Notes: generated from the letters alone by a model not told the origin. Positions 10,965 to 17,112 are shown, numbered from the stretch's first letter. The stretch: 32,000 nt of DNA from Moraxella nasicaprae (GCF_025643275.1 NZ_CP089977.1:870001-902000); one strand, 5' to 3'. Made by a program: numbers and translations.

Positions 10965-11606
10965 ATGTCTGATTTACAAATCCAAGTCATCGACCACCCA
11001 CTTGTCCGCCATAAGCTATCTTTGATGCGTGAGGCGGATTGTAGCACCTATAAATTTCGCACCTTGACCAAAGAGTTGGGTCGCTTGATGGCGTATGAAG
11101 CCAGTCGTGATTTTGAAATCGAAAGTTTTGAAATGCAAGGCTGGTGCGGTCAAATCACTGGCGAGCAAATCAAAGGTAAGACCGTGACATTAGTACCAAT
11201 TTTGCGTGCTGGTATCGGCATGCTTGATGGGGTGCTTGATTTGTTGCCGACCGCCAAAATCTCAGTGGTTGGTCTGCAAAGAGACGAGGAAACCTTAGAG
11301 CCTGTGCCATTTTTTGAGAAGTTTGTCCAAGACATCGACAAACGCCCTGCCCTGATTTTGGACCCAATGCTTGCCACAGGTGGTAGCATGGTTGCCACCA
11401 TTGACATGCTAAAAAAACACGGTTGCACCAACATCAAGGCTTTGGTATTGGTTGCTGCACCAGAAGGTGTCCGCTTGGTCAATGAAGCCCACCCTGATGT
11501 GAAAATCTTCACTGCTGCCTTAGATAGCCACTTGAATGAAAATGGCTACATCATTCCTGGCTTAGGCGATGCAGGCGATAAGATTTTTGGCACAAAACAG
11601 CTATAA
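10965..11606 (+). CDS. upp: Uracil phosphoribosyltransferase
   Basis: It has the PRPP-binding motif [11 protein letters not shown] and the C-terminal [16 protein letters not shown]. The ATG at 10965 ([14 protein letters not shown]...) fits the length of E. coli Upp. The longer ORF from 10929 is possible. Confidence 0.92.
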
Positions 11607-11627
11607 AACAGCTATAAAACAGCTATA
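11595..11627 (+). repeat. Three perfect tandem copies of an 11-bp unit (AAACAGCTATA)
   Basis: Read directly at 11595-11605, 11606-11616 and 11617-11627. The upp stop codon (11604-11606) spans the junction of the first and second units. Confidence 0.85.
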
Positions 11628-11640
11628 AAAACCAACCGCC

Positions 11641-11683
11641 AAAAAATACCATCTTATTGTAAATTGTAAGATGGTATTTTTTT
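11641..11683 (+). terminator. Rho-independent terminator of upp
   Basis: ATACCATCTTA (11646-11656) pairs with TAAGATGGTAT (11667-11677) and is followed by a T-run to 11683. Confidence 0.75.
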
Positions 11684-11699
11684 ATCAAAATAACTTCAC

Positions 11700-11726
11700 A
11701 AAAAAACAGCCTGACTAATCAGGCTG
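11700..11726 (-). terminator. Rho-independent terminator of glyS
   Basis: CAGCCTGA-CTAA-TCAGGCTG. On the minus strand it is followed by T7 (the plus-strand A-run at 11700-11706). Confidence 0.75.
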
Positions 11727-11747
11727 CCATGGTTTTGCTTGCATTCA

Positions 11748-13847
11748 TTAAGACTGCAACAACCCAATGTCCGCCACGCTCAAAAATAACGCTCGCACTT
11801 GTTGTAATAGAGCAAGGCGGTTATTTTTTAGATTCTCGTCATCAGCATTCACCATCACGCCATCAAAAAACTGCGTCAAAGGCTCATCTAGTTGTACCAA
11901 CTCCTGCAACACACCCTGATAGTCTGACATGGCTTGGCGTGGAGCAACCGCTTGTTTGGCGGTGCTGACGGCAGAGAACAAGGCTTGTTCAGCAGCCTCC
12001 ACCAAAAGCGACCGCTCAATCTCATCAGCGATGTCGCCTTGTGCTTTGGCAAGAATATTGCCCACTCGCTTGTTATTTTGGGCAAGTGTCTTGGCTTGTG
12101 GCAAAGCACGGAACGCCTCAACCGCACGAATACGCTCATCAAAATCAAACGGCGTATCAGGATTGATTTCTTGCACCGCCAAGATGGTATCAACATTCAC
12201 GCCCTGCTCGGTGTACATCGCACGATAGCGAGAATTGATGAAAGTCATCACTTCTTCAAAAATCTTTTGATGATTGTCAAGCACTTCGCCATAAGCTGAT
12301 AATGACGCTTGCACCAAAGATGATAAGCCAATCGGCAATTTTTTCTCAATCAAAATACGCAAAATACCAATGCTGGCTCGTCTTAGGCTAAATGGGTCTT
12401 TTGAGCCTGTTGGCACTTGACCGATGCCAAAAATCCCCACCAAAGTATCAATGCGGTCAGCCAACGCCAACGCCGTACCAATGGCGGTTTGGGGCAAGTT
12501 ATCGCCACTAAATTTGGGCAGATACTGCTCTTCGATGGCTTGGGCAACGGCTGGATTTTCGCTATTTTTGGCATAATAAGTACCAGCTACCCCTTGCAGC
12601 TCTGGGAACTCACCCACCAAAGTTGTCGCCAAATCCGCCTTGCACAACATCGCTGCACGCACCACATCCTCGTCATTGATGTTCTGCCAGCCATCTTGAT
12701 TTGCCAAAGATTGGTTGATGGCGGTGGCAATCTTGGCAATGCGTTCGCTCTTTTGCCAAATCGTACCAAGTTTATCTTGGAATACTCGATTTTTAAGCAG
12801 CTGAGCAAAATAAGACAGCGGTTGTTTTTGGTCTTGCAAAAAGAAAAATTCAGCGTCTGCTAGGCGTGGACGCACCACTTTTTCATTACCCAAGATGACG
12901 GCGGATTTATCAAGGCTGTCAATATTGCTGACAAAAACAAAGTACGGTAATAATTTGCCGTTTTTGTCGGTCAAGCAAAAATATTTTTGGTCAGCCTGCA
13001 TGGTGCTAATGAGTGCCTCTTGGGGAACGGCTAAGAACCGCTCTTCAAAGCTGGCTCGTAGAGCGACAGGGAAATCGACAAGGGCAGTTACCTCATCAAG
13101 CAGCTCATCAGGCACAATGGCGTCTGCCCCCACTTCGTCAGCAAGGCGAGCGACTTGCTTACTGATGCTGGCTTGGCGTTCATCAAAATCAGCGATGACA
13201 TATTGATTTTTGAGCAGCTCTTGATAATCATCAGCATGAGCAATACTCACAAAATCAGGGGCATGATAGCGATGACCTCGTGTTTGATTGCCCGTCTTAT
13301 GCCCTTGAATGGTTGCATCAATGACCGCTTCATCACGCATCAAGACCACCCACTGCACAGGACGGACAAACTCATGACGGTCAGCCCCAGAACGCATTCG
13401 CTTGGCAATCGGCAAATTGTCCAACGCCTTTTGGAAAATTGCTGGCAGCAGTACATCAACCGCCTCGCCCTTGATGGTCAAATCATAACCAATGTATTCG
13501 CCTTTTTTGTCCGATACCGTGATGAGGTCGTCTTTGCTTAGGGTTAAGCCAGTCGCATTTAAGCCTTGCAAAAAGCCCTGACCTGCTCTTGTTAATTCGC
13601 CATTGTCATCAAACGCTGCTTTTAGTGCAGGTCCACGCTTTTGCTCGACCTTATCAGGCGTGGTGGTTGCCACATTATCCATCTGCACCGCCAGACGGCG
13701 TGGAGCAGCATAAGCCCTGATATTCTCATAGACAATGCCTGAGGCATCAAGTGCCGTGCGAACATTGTCAAGCAAGGCATCACGCAAAGTTTTTAGGGAT
13801 TTTGGTGGCAACTCTTCGGTGCCAAGTTCAAATAGGATTGTGTTCAT
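11748..13847 (-). CDS. glyS: Glycine--tRNA ligase beta subunit
   Basis: The 699-aa ORF has the N-terminus MNTILFELGTEELPPKSL, matching the conserved GlyS start (E. coli ...EIGTEELPPKAL). The size is typical for the beta subunit. Confidence 0.97.
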   Translation of the reverse strand: MNTILFELGTEELPPKSLKTLRDALLDNVRTALDASGIVYENIRAYAAPRRLAVQMDNVATTTPDKVEQKRGPALKAAFDDNGELTRAGQGFLQGLNATGLTLSKDDLITVSDKKGEYIGYDLTIKGEAVDVLLPAIFQKALDNLPIAKRMRSGADRHEFVRPVQWVVLMRDEAVIDATIQGHKTGNQTRGHRYHAPDFVSIAHADDYQELLKNQYVIADFDERQASISKQVARLADEVGADAIVPDELLDEVTALVDFPVALRASFEERFLAVPQEALISTMQADQKYFCLTDKNGKLLPYFVFVSNIDSLDKSAVILGNEKVVRPRLADAEFFFLQDQKQPLSYFAQLLKNRVFQDKLGTIWQKSERIAKIATAINQSLANQDGWQNINDEDVVRAAMLCKADLATTLVGEFPELQGVAGTYYAKNSENPAVAQAIEEQYLPKFSGDNLPQTAIGTALALADRIDTLVGIFGIGQVPTGSKDPFSLRRASIGILRILIEKKLPIGLSSLVQASLSAYGEVLDNHQKIFEEVMTFINSRYRAMYTEQGVNVDTILAVQEINPDTPFDFDERIRAVEAFRALPQAKTLAQNNKRVGNILAKAQGDIADEIERSLLVEAAEQALFSAVSTAKQAVAPRQAMSDYQGVLQELVQLDEPLTQFFDGVMVNADDENLKNNRLALLQQVRALFLSVADIGLLQS

Positions 13848-13874
13848 TGTTTGACCTGTTATTTCAATTTTAAA

Positions 13875-14417
13875 TTACAACACACGGTATAAAGTTTTCA
13901 TTTCATCATCACCCACAACGGCTAATTGTTTAAAGTCGTGGCGTGCATATAAATCAAGCAGTTTGTCAATGGGCTGGCATTCTAAGATGACGGCACGACC
14001 GCCAATGATTTGACGAGCGGACAATAATATTTCAAAAACTCTATCAAAAATATCCTGCAAGATAATTGGGTTATTTTCTACATTGGCATTTTTGCCGATT
14101 TGCCCAATTAAAAAAGTTCGTATGGTTTTGGCATTTTTATTAAAGCCATCTAATTTTTTCACAACGCTTTTGCTTAATTTTTCATTATCAATATTAACAT
14201 CTTTAAAAGACAATGAAAAATATGTCAACAGTTCTCCATTGTTAGAAACAATCAAATAAGTTCTGGCATTGTGCGTGCGTTCAAAGTCAATGGCTTTATT
14301 TTTCAAAAATCGCTCAACATCTGGATTTTTTGGACAAGAAAACTCATTTATCAATCGTTTGATTGATTGTTCTTTTTTATCGTTATCCAAAAAATCCAAT
14401 AATGGATAAATTCTCAT
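13875..14417 (-). CDS. GNAT-fold protein resembling TacT/AtaT/KacT-type acetyltransferase toxins, with a divergent cofactor loop
   Basis: This is a 180-aa ORF. From memory of TacT/KacT, the segment order matches: FSCPKNPDVERFLKNKAIDFERTHNARTYLIV (compare F-D/S-C-G..L..FLK......aRTyvl), LLTYFSLS, IRTFLIGQIGKN (beta4), GGRAVILEC, and LDLYARHDFKQL (compare FYahhGF, with the catalytic Tyr). The expected R/Q-x-x-G-x-G/A loop is replaced by VENNPII. The start codon overlaps the upstream small ORF in an ATGA. Confidence 0.6.
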   Translation of the reverse strand: MRIYPLLDFLDNDKKEQSIKRLINEFSCPKNPDVERFLKNKAIDFERTHNARTYLIVSNNGELLTYFSLSFKDVNIDNEKLSKSVVKKLDGFNKNAKTIRTFLIGQIGKNANVENNPIILQDIFDRVFEILLSARQIIGGRAVILECQPIDKLLDLYARHDFKQLAVVGDDEMKTLYRVL

Positions 14418-14587
14418 TTTTTATCCCAGCGTTTTTGTAAAATTTCCAAAAATTCATCAACGCTTGGCTGTTCTTTTTTGGGTGATTTAATTTGCACAGG
14501 CTTGGCATTTTCCAAATCATATAAAAACTCTTCAATCGCCTTTTCATCACGCACGATAAATTGTTTATCAAACGATGCAGTACTCAT
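14414..14587 (-). CDS. 57-aa putative antitoxin (DUF1778-like C-terminal neutralisation segment only, no RHH head)
   Basis: This ORF is below the 60-aa cut-off of the supplied track and was translated by hand: MSTASFDKQFIVRDEKAIEEFLYDLENAKPVQIKSPKKEQPSVDEFLEILQKRWDKK. AAGGA lies 6 nt upstream of the ATG (14587). Its TGA overlaps the ATG of the 180-aa ORF (ATGA at 14417-14414). The pattern F.v.DE...EF...L...P.....L..LL.+..W resembles the C-terminal half of TacA/KacA as I recall them. Confidence 0.5.
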   Translation of the reverse strand: MSTASFDKQFIVRDEKAIEEFLYDLENAKPVQIKSPKKEQPSVDEFLEILQKRWDKK

Positions 14588-14603
14588 TTTTAATCCTTAT
14601 TGA

Positions 14604-14825
14604 TTAATCATCATCTTTGTCATTATCACGCTCGCCACGCTCATTTTGGTCATCATCTTCATCACGACCATTGTCATTACGATTGTCATCACGGTCATCA
14701 TCACGATTGCTACGGTCGGACTGCTCGGTGCGGTCGTTTTCACGCTCGTTATTGTCGTTATTGCCAACCATACCACAGGCGGTTAAAAAAGTGGCTAAAA
14801 CAGCGATTAAAATAAGGTTTTTCAT
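14604..14825 (-). CDS. Small hyper-acidic low-complexity lipoprotein
   Basis: The 73-aa ORF has a canonical lipoprotein signal, MKNLILIAVLATFLTAC (lipobox LTAC). The mature part is almost entirely D/N/R/E (…NRDDDRDDNRNDNGRDEDDDQNERGERDNDKDDD). The SD is weak (AAGAG). Confidence 0.55.
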   Translation of the reverse strand: MKNLILIAVLATFLTACGMVGNNDNNERENDRTEQSDRSNRDDDRDDNRNDNGRDEDDDQNERGERDNDKDDD

Positions 14826-14875
14826 AAATATACTCTTGAAAATTTAATGGATTAAAATGAGATTGATATTTTTAT

Positions 14876-14950
14876 ATCATATCAAAATTGCTCAATCGCC
14901 TTTTCATCACGTACAATAAATTATTTATCAAAAGATATGGTGATTACTAT
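14876..14950 (-). pseudogene. Decayed duplicate of the first ~24 codons of the 57-aa antitoxin-like gene
   Basis: By hand alignment, 14876-14950 matches 14516-14587 at about 85% over roughly 60 nt, including a 20-nt identical core (TCAATCGCCTTTTCATCACG). In the copy, ATG has become ATA and the frame reads IVITISFDK*FIVRDEKAIEQF*YD, with two stops. Confidence 0.55.
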
Positions 14951-14968
14951 TTCCCTGCTAAATATCAT

Positions 14969-15403
14969 CTATTTTCTACACTCATCCTTAATATGCGAAA
15001 TTTCCGTTTTAACAGTATGAGGCAATGGCGTAAATACAGCAACTTCTTGGTTGTTGCGAAAAACTTGTATTTTTTTAGCTTTTGAGATGGCTTCATTAAA
15101 TTTTACCCACTCATTATCGCTTTCTTTGGTGGTTGTGATTGTTACTGGAATAGTATTATCAAACAAAAAGCTAAATTGATTTTTCTCAGTAACATCTATT
15201 GGCTCATCATCAATATTATAGCTAAAATAAATGGAGCGACCATATTCTTCTCCACAAGATATTTCTAGCGATTGACTTTTTTTATTCTCAATATAAAATT
15301 GAGCTTGACCAAAATTATGTCCATAACTCCAACTATTTGGAGTTGCATTAGCCACAACACAAGACAAACCAATAGTTAAAACCAATAATTTTTTCTTAAA
15401 CAT
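14969..15403 (-). CDS. Secreted/periplasmic hypothetical protein (144 aa), translationally coupled to glyQ
   Basis: The internal ATG at 15403 gives MFKKKLLVLTIGLSCVVANA, a good Sec signal. It lies 1 nt after the glyQ stop codon. A GAGGAGGAG SD sits inside the last glyQ codons. I recognise no family. The longer tracked ORF (to 15583) overlaps glyQ out of frame and is rejected. Confidence 0.6.
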   Translation of the reverse strand: MFKKKLLVLTIGLSCVVANATPNSWSYGHNFGQAQFYIENKKSQSLEISCGEEYGRSIYFSYNIDDEPIDVTEKNQFSFLFDNTIPVTITTTKESDNEWVKFNEAISKAKKIQVFRNNQEVAVFTPLPHTVKTEISHIKDECRK

Positions 15404-15404
15404 C

Positions 15405-16346
15405 TCACTCCTCCTCTTTCGGCAACCACTTCTCCAACGCTTCTTTTTTATGTGCTTCATCAGCCAAAGGAAAACCAAGTTTGGCACGAGCGATGGTATA
15501 GCTTTCTGCCACTTTACGAGCCAGCGTACGCACTCGCAAAATAAAGCGTTGGCGTTCGGTAACGCTAATCGCTCCACGAGCATCTAGCAGGTTAAAGCTA
15601 TGAGATGCCTTTAATACCATTTCATAAGCAGGCAACGGCAAGTTTACACCCACAAGGCGGTCAGCCTCTTTTTCATAAAAATCAAACAAATCAAAGAGTT
15701 TGTCCACATCGGCATATTCAAAGTTATAGGTGGACTGCTCCACTTCGTTTTGGTGGAACACATCACCATAGGTGACACGCCCAAACTCTCCGTCCGTCCA
15801 TACAAGGTCATAGACGCTATCCACGCCCTGAATGTACATCGCAAGGCGTTCAAGCCCATAAGTAATCTCTCCTGTCACAGGAAAACACTCAATGCCCCCG
15901 ACCTGCTGAAAATAGGTAAACTGCGTAACTTCCATACCATTTAGCCACACTTCCCAGCCAAGCCCCCACGCCCCAAGCGTTGGCGACTCCCAGTTATCCT
16001 CGACAAATCGCACATCGTGGGTAAGCGTGTCAATGCCAAGTGCCTTTAATGAGCCAAGATATAGCTCTTGGATATTGGCAGGGTTTGGTTTTAGGACGAC
16101 TTGAAACTGGTAATAATGTTGCAGACGGTTGGGGTTGTCGCCATATCGTCCATCAGTGGGGCGGCGAGAGGGCTGAACATAGGCGGCGTTCCATTTTTCA
16201 GGAGTTAAGGCTCTAAGGAAAGTGGCGGTGTGAAAAGTGCCTGCCCCCATTTCCATGTCATAAGGCTGTAAAATTACACAGCCTTGCTGAGCCCAGTAGT
16301 TTTGGAGAGTGAGGATAATTTGTTGAAAAGTCATGGTCATAAACAC
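15405..16346 (-). CDS. glyQ: Glycine--tRNA ligase alpha subunit
   Basis: It is near-collinear with E. coli GlyQ as I recall it ([96 protein letters not shown]). The true start may be the ATG at 16340 or 16334 rather than the GTG at 16346. Confidence 0.97.
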
Positions 16347-16384
16347 CTAAAATAAGCAAAAATATTTTTGAGTAAAAACATTCT

Positions 16385-16413
16385 AATTTACACAAAAGCC
16401 TGAAAATTAGCAA
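16385..16413 (-). promoter_or_regulatory. Candidate sigma70 promoter for glyQ
   Basis: On the minus strand it reads TTGCTA-17 nt-TAAATT, about 40 nt upstream of the glyQ start. This is a motif match only. Confidence 0.3.
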
Positions 16414-16446
16414 CTTAATTTTGGTAAAAATTAGGTAAAAAATCCA

Positions 16447-16475
16447 TTGACTGACAAAAAATATTTAGATAATAT
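16447..16475 (+). promoter_or_regulatory. Near-consensus sigma70 promoter for the zinc-ribbon membrane protein gene
   Basis: TTGACT (16447-16452), a 17-nt spacer, then TAATAT (16470-16475). It is followed by AAGGAGG and the ATG at 16519. Confidence 0.45.
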
Positions 16476-16518
16476 TTAGTGTAATGGAATAACGGTGCGA
16501 TATGACAAGGAGGACATC

Positions 16519-16836
16519 ATGACTGACTCAACCACACCCAAGCACACCTGCACCCGTTGCCAAGACGACTGTGATTATTACTTTAAGATTGGCGATTATG
16601 CAGTATTTAGTTGCAAAAATTGTCAATCCGCTTGGGGCAACTGGACGACCTTGATTTATTTTTCTATCATCATCGTCGCCTTGAAGCTACTTTGGCGGAC
16701 GGTTGATTTTTCAGGCGTGCCCGAATCAGTATTCATCGCCATCTCTGTGGCTTTGATGTGTATTTTGATTATTTTTCGACTGTTCGGTCATCGTATGAGT
16801 GCATTGAGAATCAGGCGATTGGACAGACATGATTAA
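16519..16836 (+). CDS. Small zinc-ribbon membrane protein (CxxC...CxxC plus two TM helices)
   Basis: AAGGAGG lies 5 nt before the ATG at 16519. The N-terminus has CTRC-x17-CKNC. Two hydrophobic helices follow (TTLIYFSIIIVALKLLW, VFIAISVALMCILIIFRLF) and then a basic tail. I recognise no family. Confidence 0.6.
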   Translation: MTDSTTPKHTCTRCQDDCDYYFKIGDYAVFSCKNCQSAWGNWTTLIYFSIIIVALKLLWRTVDFSGVPESVFIAISVALMCILIIFRLFGHRMSALRIRRLDRHD

Positions 16837-16850
16837 GGTATGAACCAAAC

Positions 16851-16885
16851 AAAAACCAACACGCTCATTGGGTGTTGGTTTTTTT
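16851..16885. terminator. Bidirectional rho-independent terminator
   Basis: A5-CCAACAC-loop(9)-GTGTTGG-T7, between convergent genes. Confidence 0.75.
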
Positions 16886-16887
16886 GT

Positions 16888-17112
16888 TTAATATTGATAA
16901 GAATCAGGGGTGGCTTCTGGCATCACAAGCCATGCAATCAAATAAAATAACACACCCCCAAAGAACGACACCGACGCAGTCAAAGGAATGGACAGCACGA
17001 ATATCCAACGCAATAATGCAGGTGACCAGCCGATGTATTCTGCCAAGCCGCCAAACACGCCTGCCAGCATACGATGATTGGTTGAACGATGCAGTTTGAT
17101 TAGTTTTGCCAT
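16888..17112 (-). CDS. PspC-domain membrane protein
   Basis: The 74-aa ORF has an AAGGAG SD. LHRSTNHRMLAGVFGGLAEYIGWSPALLRWIFVL...LFYLIAWLVMPE matches the PspC-domain pattern (R.....R.i.GVcgGlAeY.g.dp.lvR..fv). Confidence 0.75.
   Translation of the reverse strand: MAKLIKLHRSTNHRMLAGVFGGLAEYIGWSPALLRWIFVLSIPLTASVSFFGGVLFYLIAWLVMPEATPDSYQY

What the first reader, a model, noticed from the sequence alone, without database searches (positions are those of the whole stretch)
13848..15404. glyQ and glyS are separated by a 1557-nt AT-rich co-directional cassette
**Established knowledge**
- In bacteria with the alpha2beta2 GlyRS, glyQ and glyS are normally adjacent in one operon. In E. coli they are a few nucleotides apart.

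**Seen in the sequence**
- The glyQ stop is at 15405 and the glyS ATG is at 13847, both on the minus strand.
- Four small ORFs and one pseudogene fragment lie between them. The gaps are 1, 18, 50, 16, -4 and 27 nt.
- I found no strong hairpin-plus-U-tract terminator inside the interval. An AT-only hairpin at 14863-14885 was noted and rejected as a terminator.
- Spot hand counts of 60-nt lines give 28% GC (14101-14160) and 32% (15181-15240) inside the cassette. Selected lines give 57% in glyS (13081-13140) and 62% in glyQ (15961-16020).

**Inference**
- The cassette was acquired horizontally.
- glyS must now be expressed either by read-through across foreign genes or from a new internal promoter.
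- Either route would perturb the stoichiometric co-expression of the two GlyRS subunits.
Basis: partly seen in the sequence, partly recalled or inferred. Interest (0 to 1): 0.7.

Follow-up and report, generated by a model that had tools for sequence, protein, structure and literature searches.

The report
Swappable gene slot splitting Moraxella glyQS
In Moraxella the genes for the two subunits of glycyl-tRNA synthetase are always separated by a small slot holding different passenger genes in different species, and here the main passenger is an uncharacterised toxin-antitoxin pair whose toxin resembles enzymes that acetylate charged tRNAs.

Summary
glyQ (16346..15405) and glyS (13847..11748), both on the minus strand, are separated by 1557 nt. 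This is the most AT-rich stretch of the window: GC 0.328 against a mean of 0.446.

The insert is a mosaic, not one foreign cassette. It holds a secreted 144-aa protein whose start lies 1 nt after the glyQ stop, a 68-nt scar of an antitoxin gene, an acidic lipoprotein, and a two-gene module.

ORF4 models as a GNAT fold whose 38 best PDB neighbours are all tRNA-acetylating toxins (AtaT, TacT, KacT, ItaT, GmvT). ORF3 belongs to a small protein family with no known relatives. It precedes ORF4 relatives in 70 of 74 metagenomic loci.

All nine other Moraxella lineages examined also have 1-4 co-directional genes in this gap. These include the same toxin-antitoxin pair (intact, frameshifted, deleted or reduced to a 21-nt remnant), the lipoprotein, a RhuM/Fic candidate defence gene, or another GNAT. 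Acinetobacter and Psychrobacter have no gene there.

The M. oblonga pair is 99% identical in DNA to this one, while glyS is about 72% identical. So exchange is recent, at an old, genus-wide slot.

I found no convincing terminator or promoter inside. Read-through is inferred, not shown.

The parts
15405..16346 (-). glyQ, glycyl-tRNA synthetase alpha subunit. It is the upstream conserved flank of the slot. Its last codons (GAG GAG GAG) supply a Shine-Dalgarno-like sequence for ORF1.
   Evidence: Pfam PF02091, E 3.7e-152. Sequence read. 81-93% DNA identity to other Moraxella glyQ.
14969..15403 (-). ORF1, a 144-aa predicted secreted protein of unknown function. It has a signal peptide ending ANA and two conserved Cys. 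Its ATG lies 1 nt after the glyQ stop.
   Evidence: Only 4 homologues among 5.8 billion proteins, all carrying the precomputed Pfam tag PF27224. No hit in my Pfam, NCBIfam, PADLOC or PDB searches. GC 0.313, GC3 0.228. Absent from two near-identical contigs, L081 and L082.
14869..14936 (-). Scar of an antitoxin gene (roughly its first 26 codons, broken by a 1-nt deletion). It is of the 'IEQF' allele type seen in M. bovis and M. oblonga, whereas the intact ORF3 is 'IEEF' type. It marks a recombination joint between two cassette types.
   Evidence: Direct repeat D1, 84% to 14509-14576. 87-90% identical to the 5' part of the antitoxin genes of M. bovis, M. oblonga and M. nasibovis. Sequence read.
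14604..14825 (-). ORF2, a 73-aa lipoprotein (lipobox LTAC) with a low-complexity D/N/R/E-rich mature part. This is the commonest resident of the glyQ-glyS slot in Moraxella.
   Evidence: Weak lipoprotein-signal matches only. Homologues occupy the same position in L081/L082, M. nasibovis, M. bovoculi, a metagenomic Moraxella and M. porci. The window's signal peptide matches the M. porci allele.
14414..14587 (-). ORF3, a 57-aa putative antitoxin of an undescribed family (N-terminal motif M-S/A-T-x-S-F-x-K-x-F-I/V-V). Its stop overlaps the ORF4 start by 4 nt.
   Evidence: Conserved partner upstream of ORF4 relatives on Acinetobacter plasmids, in Moraxella sp. ZY210820, in Vibrio, and in 70 of 74 metagenomic loci. 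No Pfam, NCBIfam or PDB relative. AF2 model has two helices, pLDDT 73.
13875..14417 (-). ORF4, a 180-aa GNAT-fold protein and putative toxin, distantly related to the aminoacyl-tRNA-acetylating toxins TacT, AtaT, KacT, ItaT and GmvT.
   Evidence: AF2 pLDDT 96.2. The 38 best Foldseek PDB hits are all such toxins, E about 1e-9, TM about 0.7; ordinary GNATs follow at TM about 0.5. The family profile hits only those toxins in PDB sequences, E 1e-5 to 2e-4. The nearly invariant Y157 aligns with the Tyr/Phe position of the FY..GF motif. No Pfam hit.
13848..13874 (-). 27-nt spacer carrying the glyS ribosome-binding region (…aacaggtcaaacaATG). About 15 nt before the ATG are conserved in 8 of the 9 Moraxella variants compared (M. 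nasovis differs), whatever gene lies upstream.
   Evidence: No stable structure.
11748..13847 (-). glyS, glycyl-tRNA synthetase beta subunit. It is the downstream conserved flank of the slot.
   Evidence: Pfam PF02092, E 1.6e-191, plus DALR_1. 100% identical to the M. nasicaprae protein.
11705..11728 (-). Terminator-like hairpin (10 pairs) followed by a T-run, 20 nt after the glyS stop. It is the only convincing terminator on this strand from glyQ onwards.

Best explanation
**What it is**
- The window is from Moraxella nasicaprae.
- In the genus Moraxella, the junction between glyQ and glyS is a long-standing variable slot inside the operon. Different species and strains hold different whole genes there.
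- All of these genes point the same way as glyQ and glyS, and they are tightly packed.

**How the contents change (inferred)**
- Contents are exchanged by homologous recombination in the two highly conserved flanking genes, probably after natural transformation.
- This is how the 'minimal mobile elements' of Neisseria are thought to move. No integrase, transposase or site-specific recombination site is needed.

**What this genome holds**
- The slot here is a recombinant of two cassette types.
- One type contributed glyQ-ORF1-antitoxin. Only a 68-nt antitoxin scar of its antitoxin gene remains.
- The other type contributed lipoprotein-ORF3-ORF4-glyS.

**The functional core (inferred)**
- ORF3-ORF4 is a type II toxin-antitoxin module.
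- ORF4 is a divergent GNAT toxin. It is inferred to acetylate aminoacyl-tRNA and so block translation.
- ORF3 is a new kind of small antitoxin. It is inferred to bind and block ORF4.

**Expression (inferred)**
- The passenger genes and glyS are most likely transcribed from the glyQ promoter as one message, which ends at the hairpin after glyS.
- The module therefore rides on an essential operon. That placement gives it expression and makes clean deletion risky.

**Shown versus inferred**
- Shown: the anatomy, the fold relationship, the conserved gene pairing, the variability of the slot across the genus, and the recent inter-species identity.
- Inferred: toxicity, the tRNA target, read-through transcription, and the recombination route.
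For: **Organism**
- ORF4 and GlyS are 100% identical to the M. nasicaprae proteins.

**The slot is variable across the genus**

| Lineage | Content between glyQ and glyS |
|---|---|
| L081, L082 | lipoprotein, antitoxin, toxin |
| Moraxella sp. L089 | antitoxin plus toxin with an internal deletion |
| M. oblonga | antitoxin and toxin only |
| M. bovis | 150-aa secreted protein, antitoxin, frameshifted toxin |
| M. nasibovis | lipoprotein, antitoxin pseudogene, RhuM/Fic |
| M. porci | DUF2711, lipoprotein, RhuM/Fic |
| M. bovoculi and a metagenomic relative | lipoprotein plus a 21-nt remnant of the toxin 3' end (alignment score 42-47; shuffle maximum 34) |
| M. nasovis | a different GNAT |

- Outside the genus, the gap is under 250 nt in all but one of the 78 gammaproteobacterial loci where both genes were found.

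**Recent exchange**
- The toxin-antitoxin DNA is 99% identical to that of M. oblonga. Identity drops to 57-87% exactly at the ORF4 stop.
- Against L081, glyQ is 91% identical but the lipoprotein-to-glyS block is 97% identical.

**No mobility signatures**
- No bounding repeats and no XerC/D-type site.
- No recombinase gene appears in any gene list.

**Toxin-antitoxin identity**
- A small upstream partner is conserved in 70 of 74 metagenomic loci, and on plasmids, a conjugative element and phages.
- The decay pattern fits addiction logic. Every intact toxin gene seen with its upstream DNA (Moraxella, plasmid and Vibrio loci) has an intact antitoxin gene. The only broken antitoxin gene (M. nasibovis) lacks a toxin gene.

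**One transcript**
- The gaps of 1, 16, -4 and 27 nt, and 25 nt in M. oblonga, leave no room for promoters.
- There is no terminator inside the interval and a good one after glyS.

**Definition of minimal mobile elements**
- PMC3082526.
Against: **The toxin**
- The canonical acetyl-CoA loop of GNATs (Q/R-x-x-G-x-G/A) is not recognisable in the ORF4 family. The loop reads N-x-x-x-x-N-x-I.
- Pfam's GNAT models do not score ORF4, so enzymatic activity is not assured.

**The antitoxin**
- It has no DNA-binding domain that I could recognise, and its model is of only moderate confidence.

**Transcription**
- There are no transcript data.
- The 143-nt non-coding stretch 14826-14968 could hide a promoter. 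The AT-rich sequence gives weak promoter-like matches at chance frequency.
- A marginal 5-bp terminator-like hairpin lies inside the toxin gene of M. oblonga and M. bovis.

**Sampling and route**
- Ten lineages (this window plus nine others) are a sample of the genus, not the whole of it.
- Homologous recombination is inferred from identity breaks, not observed.
Confidence: 0.7

Rival explanations
1. A single foreign cassette was recently inserted between glyQ and glyS in this lineage. It forces a new mode of glyS expression and disturbs the balance of the two subunits.
For: The composition is strongly atypical. The toxin-antitoxin block has been exchanged between species recently. ORF1 is present in this genome but not in two otherwise near-identical contigs.
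Against: All nine other Moraxella lineages examined have genes in this gap, and decayed copies of the same module occur in distant species. So the separation is old and tolerated. The interval is a mosaic with an internal recombination scar. Nothing indicates a cost to GlyRS.
Confidence: 0.1
2. The position is functional, not accidental. ORF4 acetylates Gly-tRNA(Gly), and its placement inside the GlyRS operon couples production of the toxin and antitoxin to production of the enzyme that makes the toxin's substrate.
For: The nearest structural relatives include TacT bound to acetyl-glycyl-tRNA(Gly), and AtaT2. A published survey states that most GNAT toxins tested are specific for Gly-tRNA isoacceptors (PMC9177977 abstract). 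The module or its remains occupy this exact site in at least six Moraxella lineages. A second, unrelated GNAT sits there in M. nasovis.
Against: None of 80 metagenomic loci with ORF4 relatives has glyQ or glyS within 3.5 kb. Relatives sit on plasmids, a conjugative element and phages. In Moraxella sp. ZY210820 the pair lies between pdxA and ksgA instead. The same slot also holds unrelated cargo: RhuM/Fic, DUF2711 and secreted proteins. The toxin gene has decayed repeatedly. The target of ORF4 is unknown.
Confidence: 0.1
3. ORF3-ORF4 is not a toxin-antitoxin pair. It is an ordinary acetyltransferase with a small accessory or regulatory protein, for example one that modifies a metabolite or a protein.
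For: Sources annotate ORF4 simply as 'acetyltransferase'. The canonical acetyl-CoA loop motif is divergent. The partner is not a DUF1778 or ribbon-helix-helix antitoxin. No PADLOC model matches.
Against: The 38 best structural neighbours are all toxins, and ordinary GNATs score clearly worse. Profile hits in PDB sequences are to toxins only. The arrangement is a tight two-gene unit with overlapping stop and start, found on plasmids, phages, satellites and conjugative elements. The decay order (toxin gene lost first, antitoxin gene only afterwards) fits addiction logic.
Confidence: 0.1

Closest known systems
GNAT/DUF1778 type II toxin-antitoxin systems (TacAT, AtaRT, KacAT, ItaRT, GmvAT, AtaRT2)
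   Same: The toxin has a GNAT fold, and these toxins are its best structural and profile matches. The Tyr of the FY..GF motif is conserved. A small upstream gene overlaps the toxin gene. The module occurs on plasmids and other mobile elements.
   Different: Identity is only 14-20%, and Pfam does not recognise ORF4. The acetyl-CoA loop motif is divergent. The partner is a 55-65-aa protein with an M-A/S-T-x-S-F motif and no detectable DUF1778 or ribbon-helix-helix domain. In Moraxella the pair has no room for its own promoter or operator.
Minimal mobile elements (MMEs) of Neisseria
   Same: Two conserved genes flank alternative whole-gene cassettes in different strains and species. There are no mobility genes or repeats. 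Identity breaks lie at or within the flanks. The definition is from PMC3082526; the evidence is.
   Different: Here the flanks are the two subunit genes of one essential enzyme in one operon, so the cargo must be co-directional and allow read-through. I have not found such a site described in Moraxella: no paper in the library holds glyQ, glyS and Moraxella together. Exchange by transformation is not shown.
Defence and accessory-gene hotspots between core genes (as catalogued in PADLOC candidate systems)
   Same: Alternative cargo in the same slot includes a RhuM/Fic protein that matches candidate system PDC-S23 over its full length (E 8.5e-139). A Methylobacter genome has an AbiLi/AriA-like ATPase pair between glyQ and glyS.
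   Different: The window's own four ORFs match no PADLOC model. The slot is very small (0.4-2 kb) and lies inside an operon, not between operons.

Membership tests
GNAT aminoacyl-tRNA-acetylating toxins (TacT/AtaT/KacT type II TA) | GNAT fold closest to the known toxins rather than to other acetyltransferases | tested here: met
   AF2 pLDDT 96.2. Foldseek PDB ranks 1-38 are all toxins, TM about 0.62-0.72; other GNATs follow at TM 0.44-0.54.
GNAT aminoacyl-tRNA-acetylating toxins (TacT/AtaT/KacT type II TA) | Detectable sequence homology to the family | tested here: met
   A profile of 29 ORF4 relatives hits only GmvT, TacT1-3 and AtaT2 chains, E 1.1e-5 to 2e-4. The single sequence alone is not significant (E 0.72), and Pfam GNAT models miss it.
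GNAT aminoacyl-tRNA-acetylating toxins (TacT/AtaT/KacT type II TA) | Catalytic tyrosine in the C-terminal FY..GF motif | tested here: met
   Y157 is nearly invariant in the family. It aligns with the Y of 'FYERFGF' in GmvT and with the corresponding position in the TacT chains. That this Tyr is the catalytic residue comes from my own knowledge of the Y-to-F mutant structures listed.
GNAT aminoacyl-tRNA-acetylating toxins (TacT/AtaT/KacT type II TA) | Canonical acetyl-CoA pyrophosphate-binding loop Q/R-x-x-G-x-G/A after strand 4 | tested here: not met
   The family consensus after 'LIGQIGKN' is x-x-x-x-x-N-x-I-x-L, without the glycines. A loop of similar length is modelled with high confidence, so binding may persist, but this was not tested.
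GNAT aminoacyl-tRNA-acetylating toxins (TacT/AtaT/KacT type II TA) | Cognate upstream antitoxin with a DUF1778 / ribbon-helix-helix domain | tested here: not met
   ORF3 and 20 relatives have no Pfam or PDB match. The AF2 model shows two separated helices. An upstream partner exists but belongs to a different family.
GNAT aminoacyl-tRNA-acetylating toxins (TacT/AtaT/KacT type II TA) | Growth arrest by the toxin, rescue by the antitoxin, and acetylation of aminoacyl-tRNA | not testable with these tools
   Needs expression experiments and tRNA mass spectrometry.
Minimal mobile element (MME) | Two conserved flanking genes with different whole-gene cassettes between them in different strains or species | tested here: met
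   Ten Moraxella lineages with at least seven different contents between glyQ and glyS.
Minimal mobile element (MME) | No self-mobility functions or terminal repeats | tested here: met
   No bounding direct or inverted repeats. No XerC/D-type site. No recombinase appears in any of the gene lists.
Minimal mobile element (MME) | Incorporation by homologous recombination in the flanks | tested here: inconclusive
   Sharp identity breaks fit this route: 99% falling to about 72% at the ORF4 stop against M. oblonga, and 91% against 97% on the two sides against L081. They do not prove it.
Integron cassette or Acinetobacter pdif module | Flanking attC or XerC/D recombination sites | tested here: not met
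   No match to the XerC/D consensus with up to 3 mismatches anywhere in the window. No imperfect inverted repeats at the borders. attC was not searched with a dedicated model.
Known anti-phage defence systems (PADLOC) | Match of the window's proteins to a defence-system model | tested here: not met
   No PADLOC hit for ORF1-4 at E up to 0.1. Alternative cargo in other species does match: PDC-S23, and AbiLi/AriA-like.

The most novel reading that the evidence does not exclude
ORF4 is a Gly-tRNA(Gly)-acetylating toxin, and its residence between the two GlyRS subunit genes has been selected for. On this reading, toxin, antitoxin and the synthetase that makes the toxin's substrate are produced from one message. 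Changes in glyQS transcription or in translation of the message would then set the balance between charging and blocking of tRNA(Gly). The operon position would make the module a built-in brake on glycine decoding, not a mere passenger.
Probability: 0.1. Interest if true: 0.75.

Novelty: new variant of a known kind. Interest (0 to 1): 0.45.

Why it matters
- **An operon can carry passengers.** An essential two-subunit enzyme operon can be split for the long term by a swappable slot. That is of use to anyone who annotates operons or infers co-regulation from gene adjacency.
- **An unstudied toxin-antitoxin family.** The finding points to a widespread two-gene family: a divergent GNAT toxin with a new small partner. 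It is present on Acinetobacter plasmids, a Vibrio conjugative element, phages of Firmicutes and gut metagenomes. Current Pfam, NCBIfam and PADLOC models miss it.
- **A natural series of decay stages.** The Moraxella series runs from an intact module through frameshift and deletion to a scar, all at one fixed address.
- **A testable link to GlyRS.** Many GNAT toxins act on Gly-tRNA, so the site invites a direct test of whether the position matters.

Tried and rejected
**Scans that missed their aim**
It returned no Moraxella genome. I reached the Moraxella loci through exact-protein look-ups instead.
- One look-up, for the M. caviae protein, found nothing on record.

**Searches with no credible hit**
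- Pfam, NCBIfam and PADLOC gave nothing credible for ORF1-4.
- Rfam found nothing credible in 11500-16800.
- An XerC/D (pdif-like) site search found nothing. I had thought of it because relatives sit on small Acinetobacter plasmids.
- The paper search for glyQ, glyS and Moraxella together found nothing.

**ORF1**
- I suspected that ORF1 and the 150-aa M. bovis protein at the same position were homologous.
- BLASTP gave E 0.28 and hhalign gave a probability of 0.3%. I therefore treat them as unrelated occupants.
- The ORF1 family profile has no PDB relative.

**The antitoxin**
- The single-sequence search of 1.84 billion representatives gave only 5 hits.
- Its AF2 model is of moderate confidence and shows no recognisable DNA-binding fold.

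**Promoters and terminators**
- Promoter-like hits occur at chance frequency in this AT-rich DNA, so I draw nothing from them.
- The 5-bp hairpin inside the toxin gene of M. oblonga and M. bovis encodes the invariant GGR motif. In the window its T-run is interrupted. I do not regard it as a terminator.
Full report
**1. The observation**

glyQ (16346..15405) and glyS (13847..11748) lie on the minus strand and are identified beyond doubt (Pfam E 3.7e-152 and 1.6e-191). They are 1557 nt apart.

Reading the minus strand gives this order:
- glyQ stop.
- 1 nt.
- ORF1 (15403..14969, 144 aa).
- 143 nt of non-coding DNA, which contains a 68-nt copy of the start of ORF3 (14936..14869).
- ORF2 (14825..14604, 73 aa).
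- 16 nt.
- ORF3 (14587..14414, 57 aa), overlapping the next gene by 4 nt.
- ORF4 (14417..13875, 180 aa).
- 27 nt.
- glyS ATG.

Its four hand counts of GC are exact.

The interval has GC 0.328. It is essentially the lowest 1557-nt stretch in the 32-kb window (mean 0.446, sd 0.025). No window outside it goes below 0.421. GC3 is 0.293, against 0.461 in ten host genes.

No terminator-like site lies on this strand inside the interval. A 10-bp hairpin with a T-run follows glyS at 11728-11705.

**2. The organism and the normal state of the locus**

ORF4 and GlyS are 100% identical to proteins of Moraxella nasicaprae.

Both genes were found in 78 of 80 other gammaproteobacterial loci. In all but one of those 78 (a Methylobacter genome), glyS starts within about 250 nt of the end of glyQ. 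In Acinetobacter the two genes overlap, and in Psychrobacter the gap is 118-242 nt. So the separation is unusual for the class and for the family.

**3. What the four ORFs are**

*ORF4.*
- It has no Pfam or NCBIfam match.
- An AlphaFold model built on 29 relatives is very confident (pLDDT 96.2).
- Its 38 best matches among solved structures are all tRNA-acetylating GNAT toxins: AtaT, TacT1-3, AtaT2, KacT, ItaT and GmvT (E about 1e-9, TM about 0.7). Ordinary acetyltransferases come after them at TM about 0.5.
- A sequence profile of the family hits only those toxins in the PDB (E 1e-5 to 2e-4).
- The nearly invariant Tyr157 aligns with the Tyr of the FY..GF motif.
- The classical glycine-rich acetyl-CoA loop is not recognisable. 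I record that as a defining feature not met.

*ORF3.*
- It belongs to a family of 55-65-aa proteins with the N-terminal motif M-A/S-T-x-S-F-x-K-x-F-V/I-V.
- A small ORF in this position precedes ORF4 relatives in these places:
  - on Acinetobacter plasmids;
  - in Moraxella sp. ZY210820;
  - at the edge of a conjugative element in Vibrio parahaemolyticus;
  - in 70 of 74 metagenomic loci with enough upstream sequence.
- The family has no detectable relative in Pfam or the PDB. Its model shows two helices at moderate confidence.
- It is therefore not the DUF1778 antitoxin of the known GNAT systems.

*ORF2.*
- It is a lipoprotein with an acidic, low-complexity mature part.

*ORF1.*
- It is a secreted protein with only four homologues in 5.8 billion sequences.
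- Its start is 1 nt after the glyQ stop, behind a GGAGGAG formed by the last glyQ codons.

**4. The comparison that changes the picture**

I looked up the glyS or ORF4 proteins of other Moraxella and read their surroundings.

| Lineage | Content between glyQ and glyS |
|---|---|
| Two contigs 97% identical to the window across glyS | longer lipoprotein, ORF3, ORF4; no ORF1 and no scar |
| Moraxella sp., 98% GlyS identity | ORF3 plus an ORF4 with 124 nt deleted |
| M. oblonga | ORF3 and ORF4 only; ORF3 starts 25 nt after the glyQ stop |
| M. bovis | an unrelated 150-aa secreted protein, the antitoxin gene, a frameshifted toxin gene |
| M. nasibovis | the lipoprotein, an antitoxin pseudogene (stop codon plus frameshift), a 330-aa RhuM/Fic protein |
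| M. porci | DUF2711, the lipoprotein, RhuM/Fic |
| M. bovoculi and a metagenomic relative | the lipoprotein, then about 21 nt of the toxin's 3' end before glyS (alignment score 42-47; shuffle mean 18, maximum 34) |
| M. nasovis | a different GNAT of the Acetyltransf_1/3 kind |

Every one of these genes is co-directional with glyQ and glyS. The intervals are all AT-rich relative to their flanks (GC 0.32-0.40 against 0.45-0.50).

The slot is thus a feature of the genus, and the toxin-antitoxin pair is an old and repeatedly decaying tenant.

**5. Evidence for ongoing exchange**

- The ORF3-ORF4 DNA of M. oblonga is 99% identical to the window's. Identity falls to 57-87% from the ORF4 stop onwards into glyS, whose protein is only 73% identical.
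- Against L081, glyQ is 91% identical but everything from the middle of ORF2 to the end of glyS is 97% identical.
- The window's antitoxin scar is of the 'IEQF' allele type found in M. bovis and M. oblonga, while its intact ORF3 is 'IEEF'. The signal peptide of its ORF2 matches the M. porci allele, not that of L081.

The window's interval is therefore a recombinant of at least two cassette types.

I found no bounding repeats, no XerC/D-type site and no recombinase. [quoted passage not shown]

That Moraxella species are naturally transformable is my own background knowledge. It was not tested here.

**6. How it most likely works**

*Shown:*
- the anatomy;
- the fold relationship;
- the conserved pairing of ORF3 with ORF4;
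- the variability of the slot and the recent transfer;
- a decay order that fits addiction logic: every intact toxin gene seen with its upstream DNA has an intact antitoxin gene, and the one broken antitoxin gene has no toxin gene.

*Inferred:*
- ORF4 acetylates aminoacyl-tRNA and ORF3 neutralises it.
- The whole stretch from glyQ to glyS is one transcript. The gaps of 1, 16, -4 and 27 nt, and 25 nt in M. oblonga, leave no room for promoters, and no convincing terminator is present.
- Sitting between two essential genes gives the passengers expression and protection from deletion.

The only sizeable non-coding stretch, 14826-14968, could hold a promoter. The scans cannot tell.

**7. Does the GlyRS context mean something?**

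*Evidence for a link:*
- Relatives of ORF4 include TacT crystallised with acetyl-glycyl-tRNA(Gly).
- A published survey reports that most GNAT toxins tested are specific for Gly-tRNA (PMC9177977).

A link between the toxin and its address is therefore tempting.

*Evidence against a link:*
- None of 80 metagenomic relatives is near glyQ or glyS.
- In another Moraxella, the pair lies between pdxA and ksgA.
- The slot also holds unrelated cargo, including a RhuM/Fic protein that matches the candidate defence system PDC-S23 over its full length (E 8.5e-139).
- A Methylobacter genome has an AbiLi/AriA-like ATPase pair between glyQ and glyS.

The site looks like a permissive address for selfish or defence genes. 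I give the functional reading about 10%.

**8. Verdict**

- It misses the main point. This is a genus-wide, operon-embedded variable slot, and its core tenant is an undescribed variant of the GNAT toxin-antitoxin systems.
- I rate it a new variant of known kinds, and moderately interesting.

Noticed in passing
L066:1368-2937 (Methylobacter sp. MAG): A second, unrelated case of a split glyQS operon. A 346-aa ATPase (Pfam AAA_21/AAA_15; PADLOC AbiLi and AriA-like, E about 2e-18) and an overlapping 185-aa ORF sit between glyQ and glyS, co-directional, starting 4 nt after glyQ.
   Followed up: partly
L092:3431-4423 and L102:3485-4453: The RhuM/Fic protein that replaces the toxin next to glyS in M. 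nasibovis and M. porci matches the PADLOC candidate single-gene defence system PDC-S23 over its full length (E 8.5e-139).
   Followed up: partly
L083 and L084, 5573-8020 and 10358-11049 (Moraxella sp. ZY210820): The same antitoxin-toxin pair, with four other small ORFs, lies between pdxA/SLAC1 and ksgA. A PhdYeFM-PIN pair lies just before a Metallophos gene (possibly apaH) further along. Other housekeeping gene runs in Moraxella may therefore also carry embedded passenger modules.
   Followed up: no
L089:4067-4240, corresponding to window 14136-14259: In a 98%-related strain, the toxin gene has lost 124 nt, with the break adjacent to two copies of AATGCCA (…HNARTY… / …KNAKTIR… becomes …HNAKTIRTF*). 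This looks like a microhomology deletion that inactivates the toxin and leaves the antitoxin gene intact.
   Followed up: partly
window 16300-16900: A second AT-rich patch (GC 0.327 at 16300-16599) lies upstream of glyQ. The 540-nt gap between the PspC-domain gene (17112..16888) and glyQ holds a 113-aa ORF on the opposite strand (16495-16836) with CxxC pairs and a hydrophobic segment. In M. oblonga the same gap is only 208 nt and has no called gene.
   Followed up: no
L096:3988-4476 (M. nasovis): A 162-aa GNAT of the Acetyltransf_1/Acetyltransf_3 kind, unrelated to ORF4, fills the glyQ-glyS slot and overlaps the end of glyQ by 14 nt.
   Followed up: no
phage records H16-H25: ORF4 relatives (33-38% identity) occur in 32 phage and satellite records of Clostridium, Clostridioides, Staphylococcus and Streptococcus, often at the end of the genome. 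Their upstream partners in gut-metagenome loci keep the MATSS(I/F)xK motif.
   Followed up: partly
window 14604-14847, both strands: The repetitive GAT/GAC/AAT/CGT-rich coding sequence of ORF2 produces long overlapping ORFs in other frames and on the opposite strand (for example 14617-14847 on the plus strand, 76 aa). These are artefacts of low complexity, not genes.
   Followed up: no
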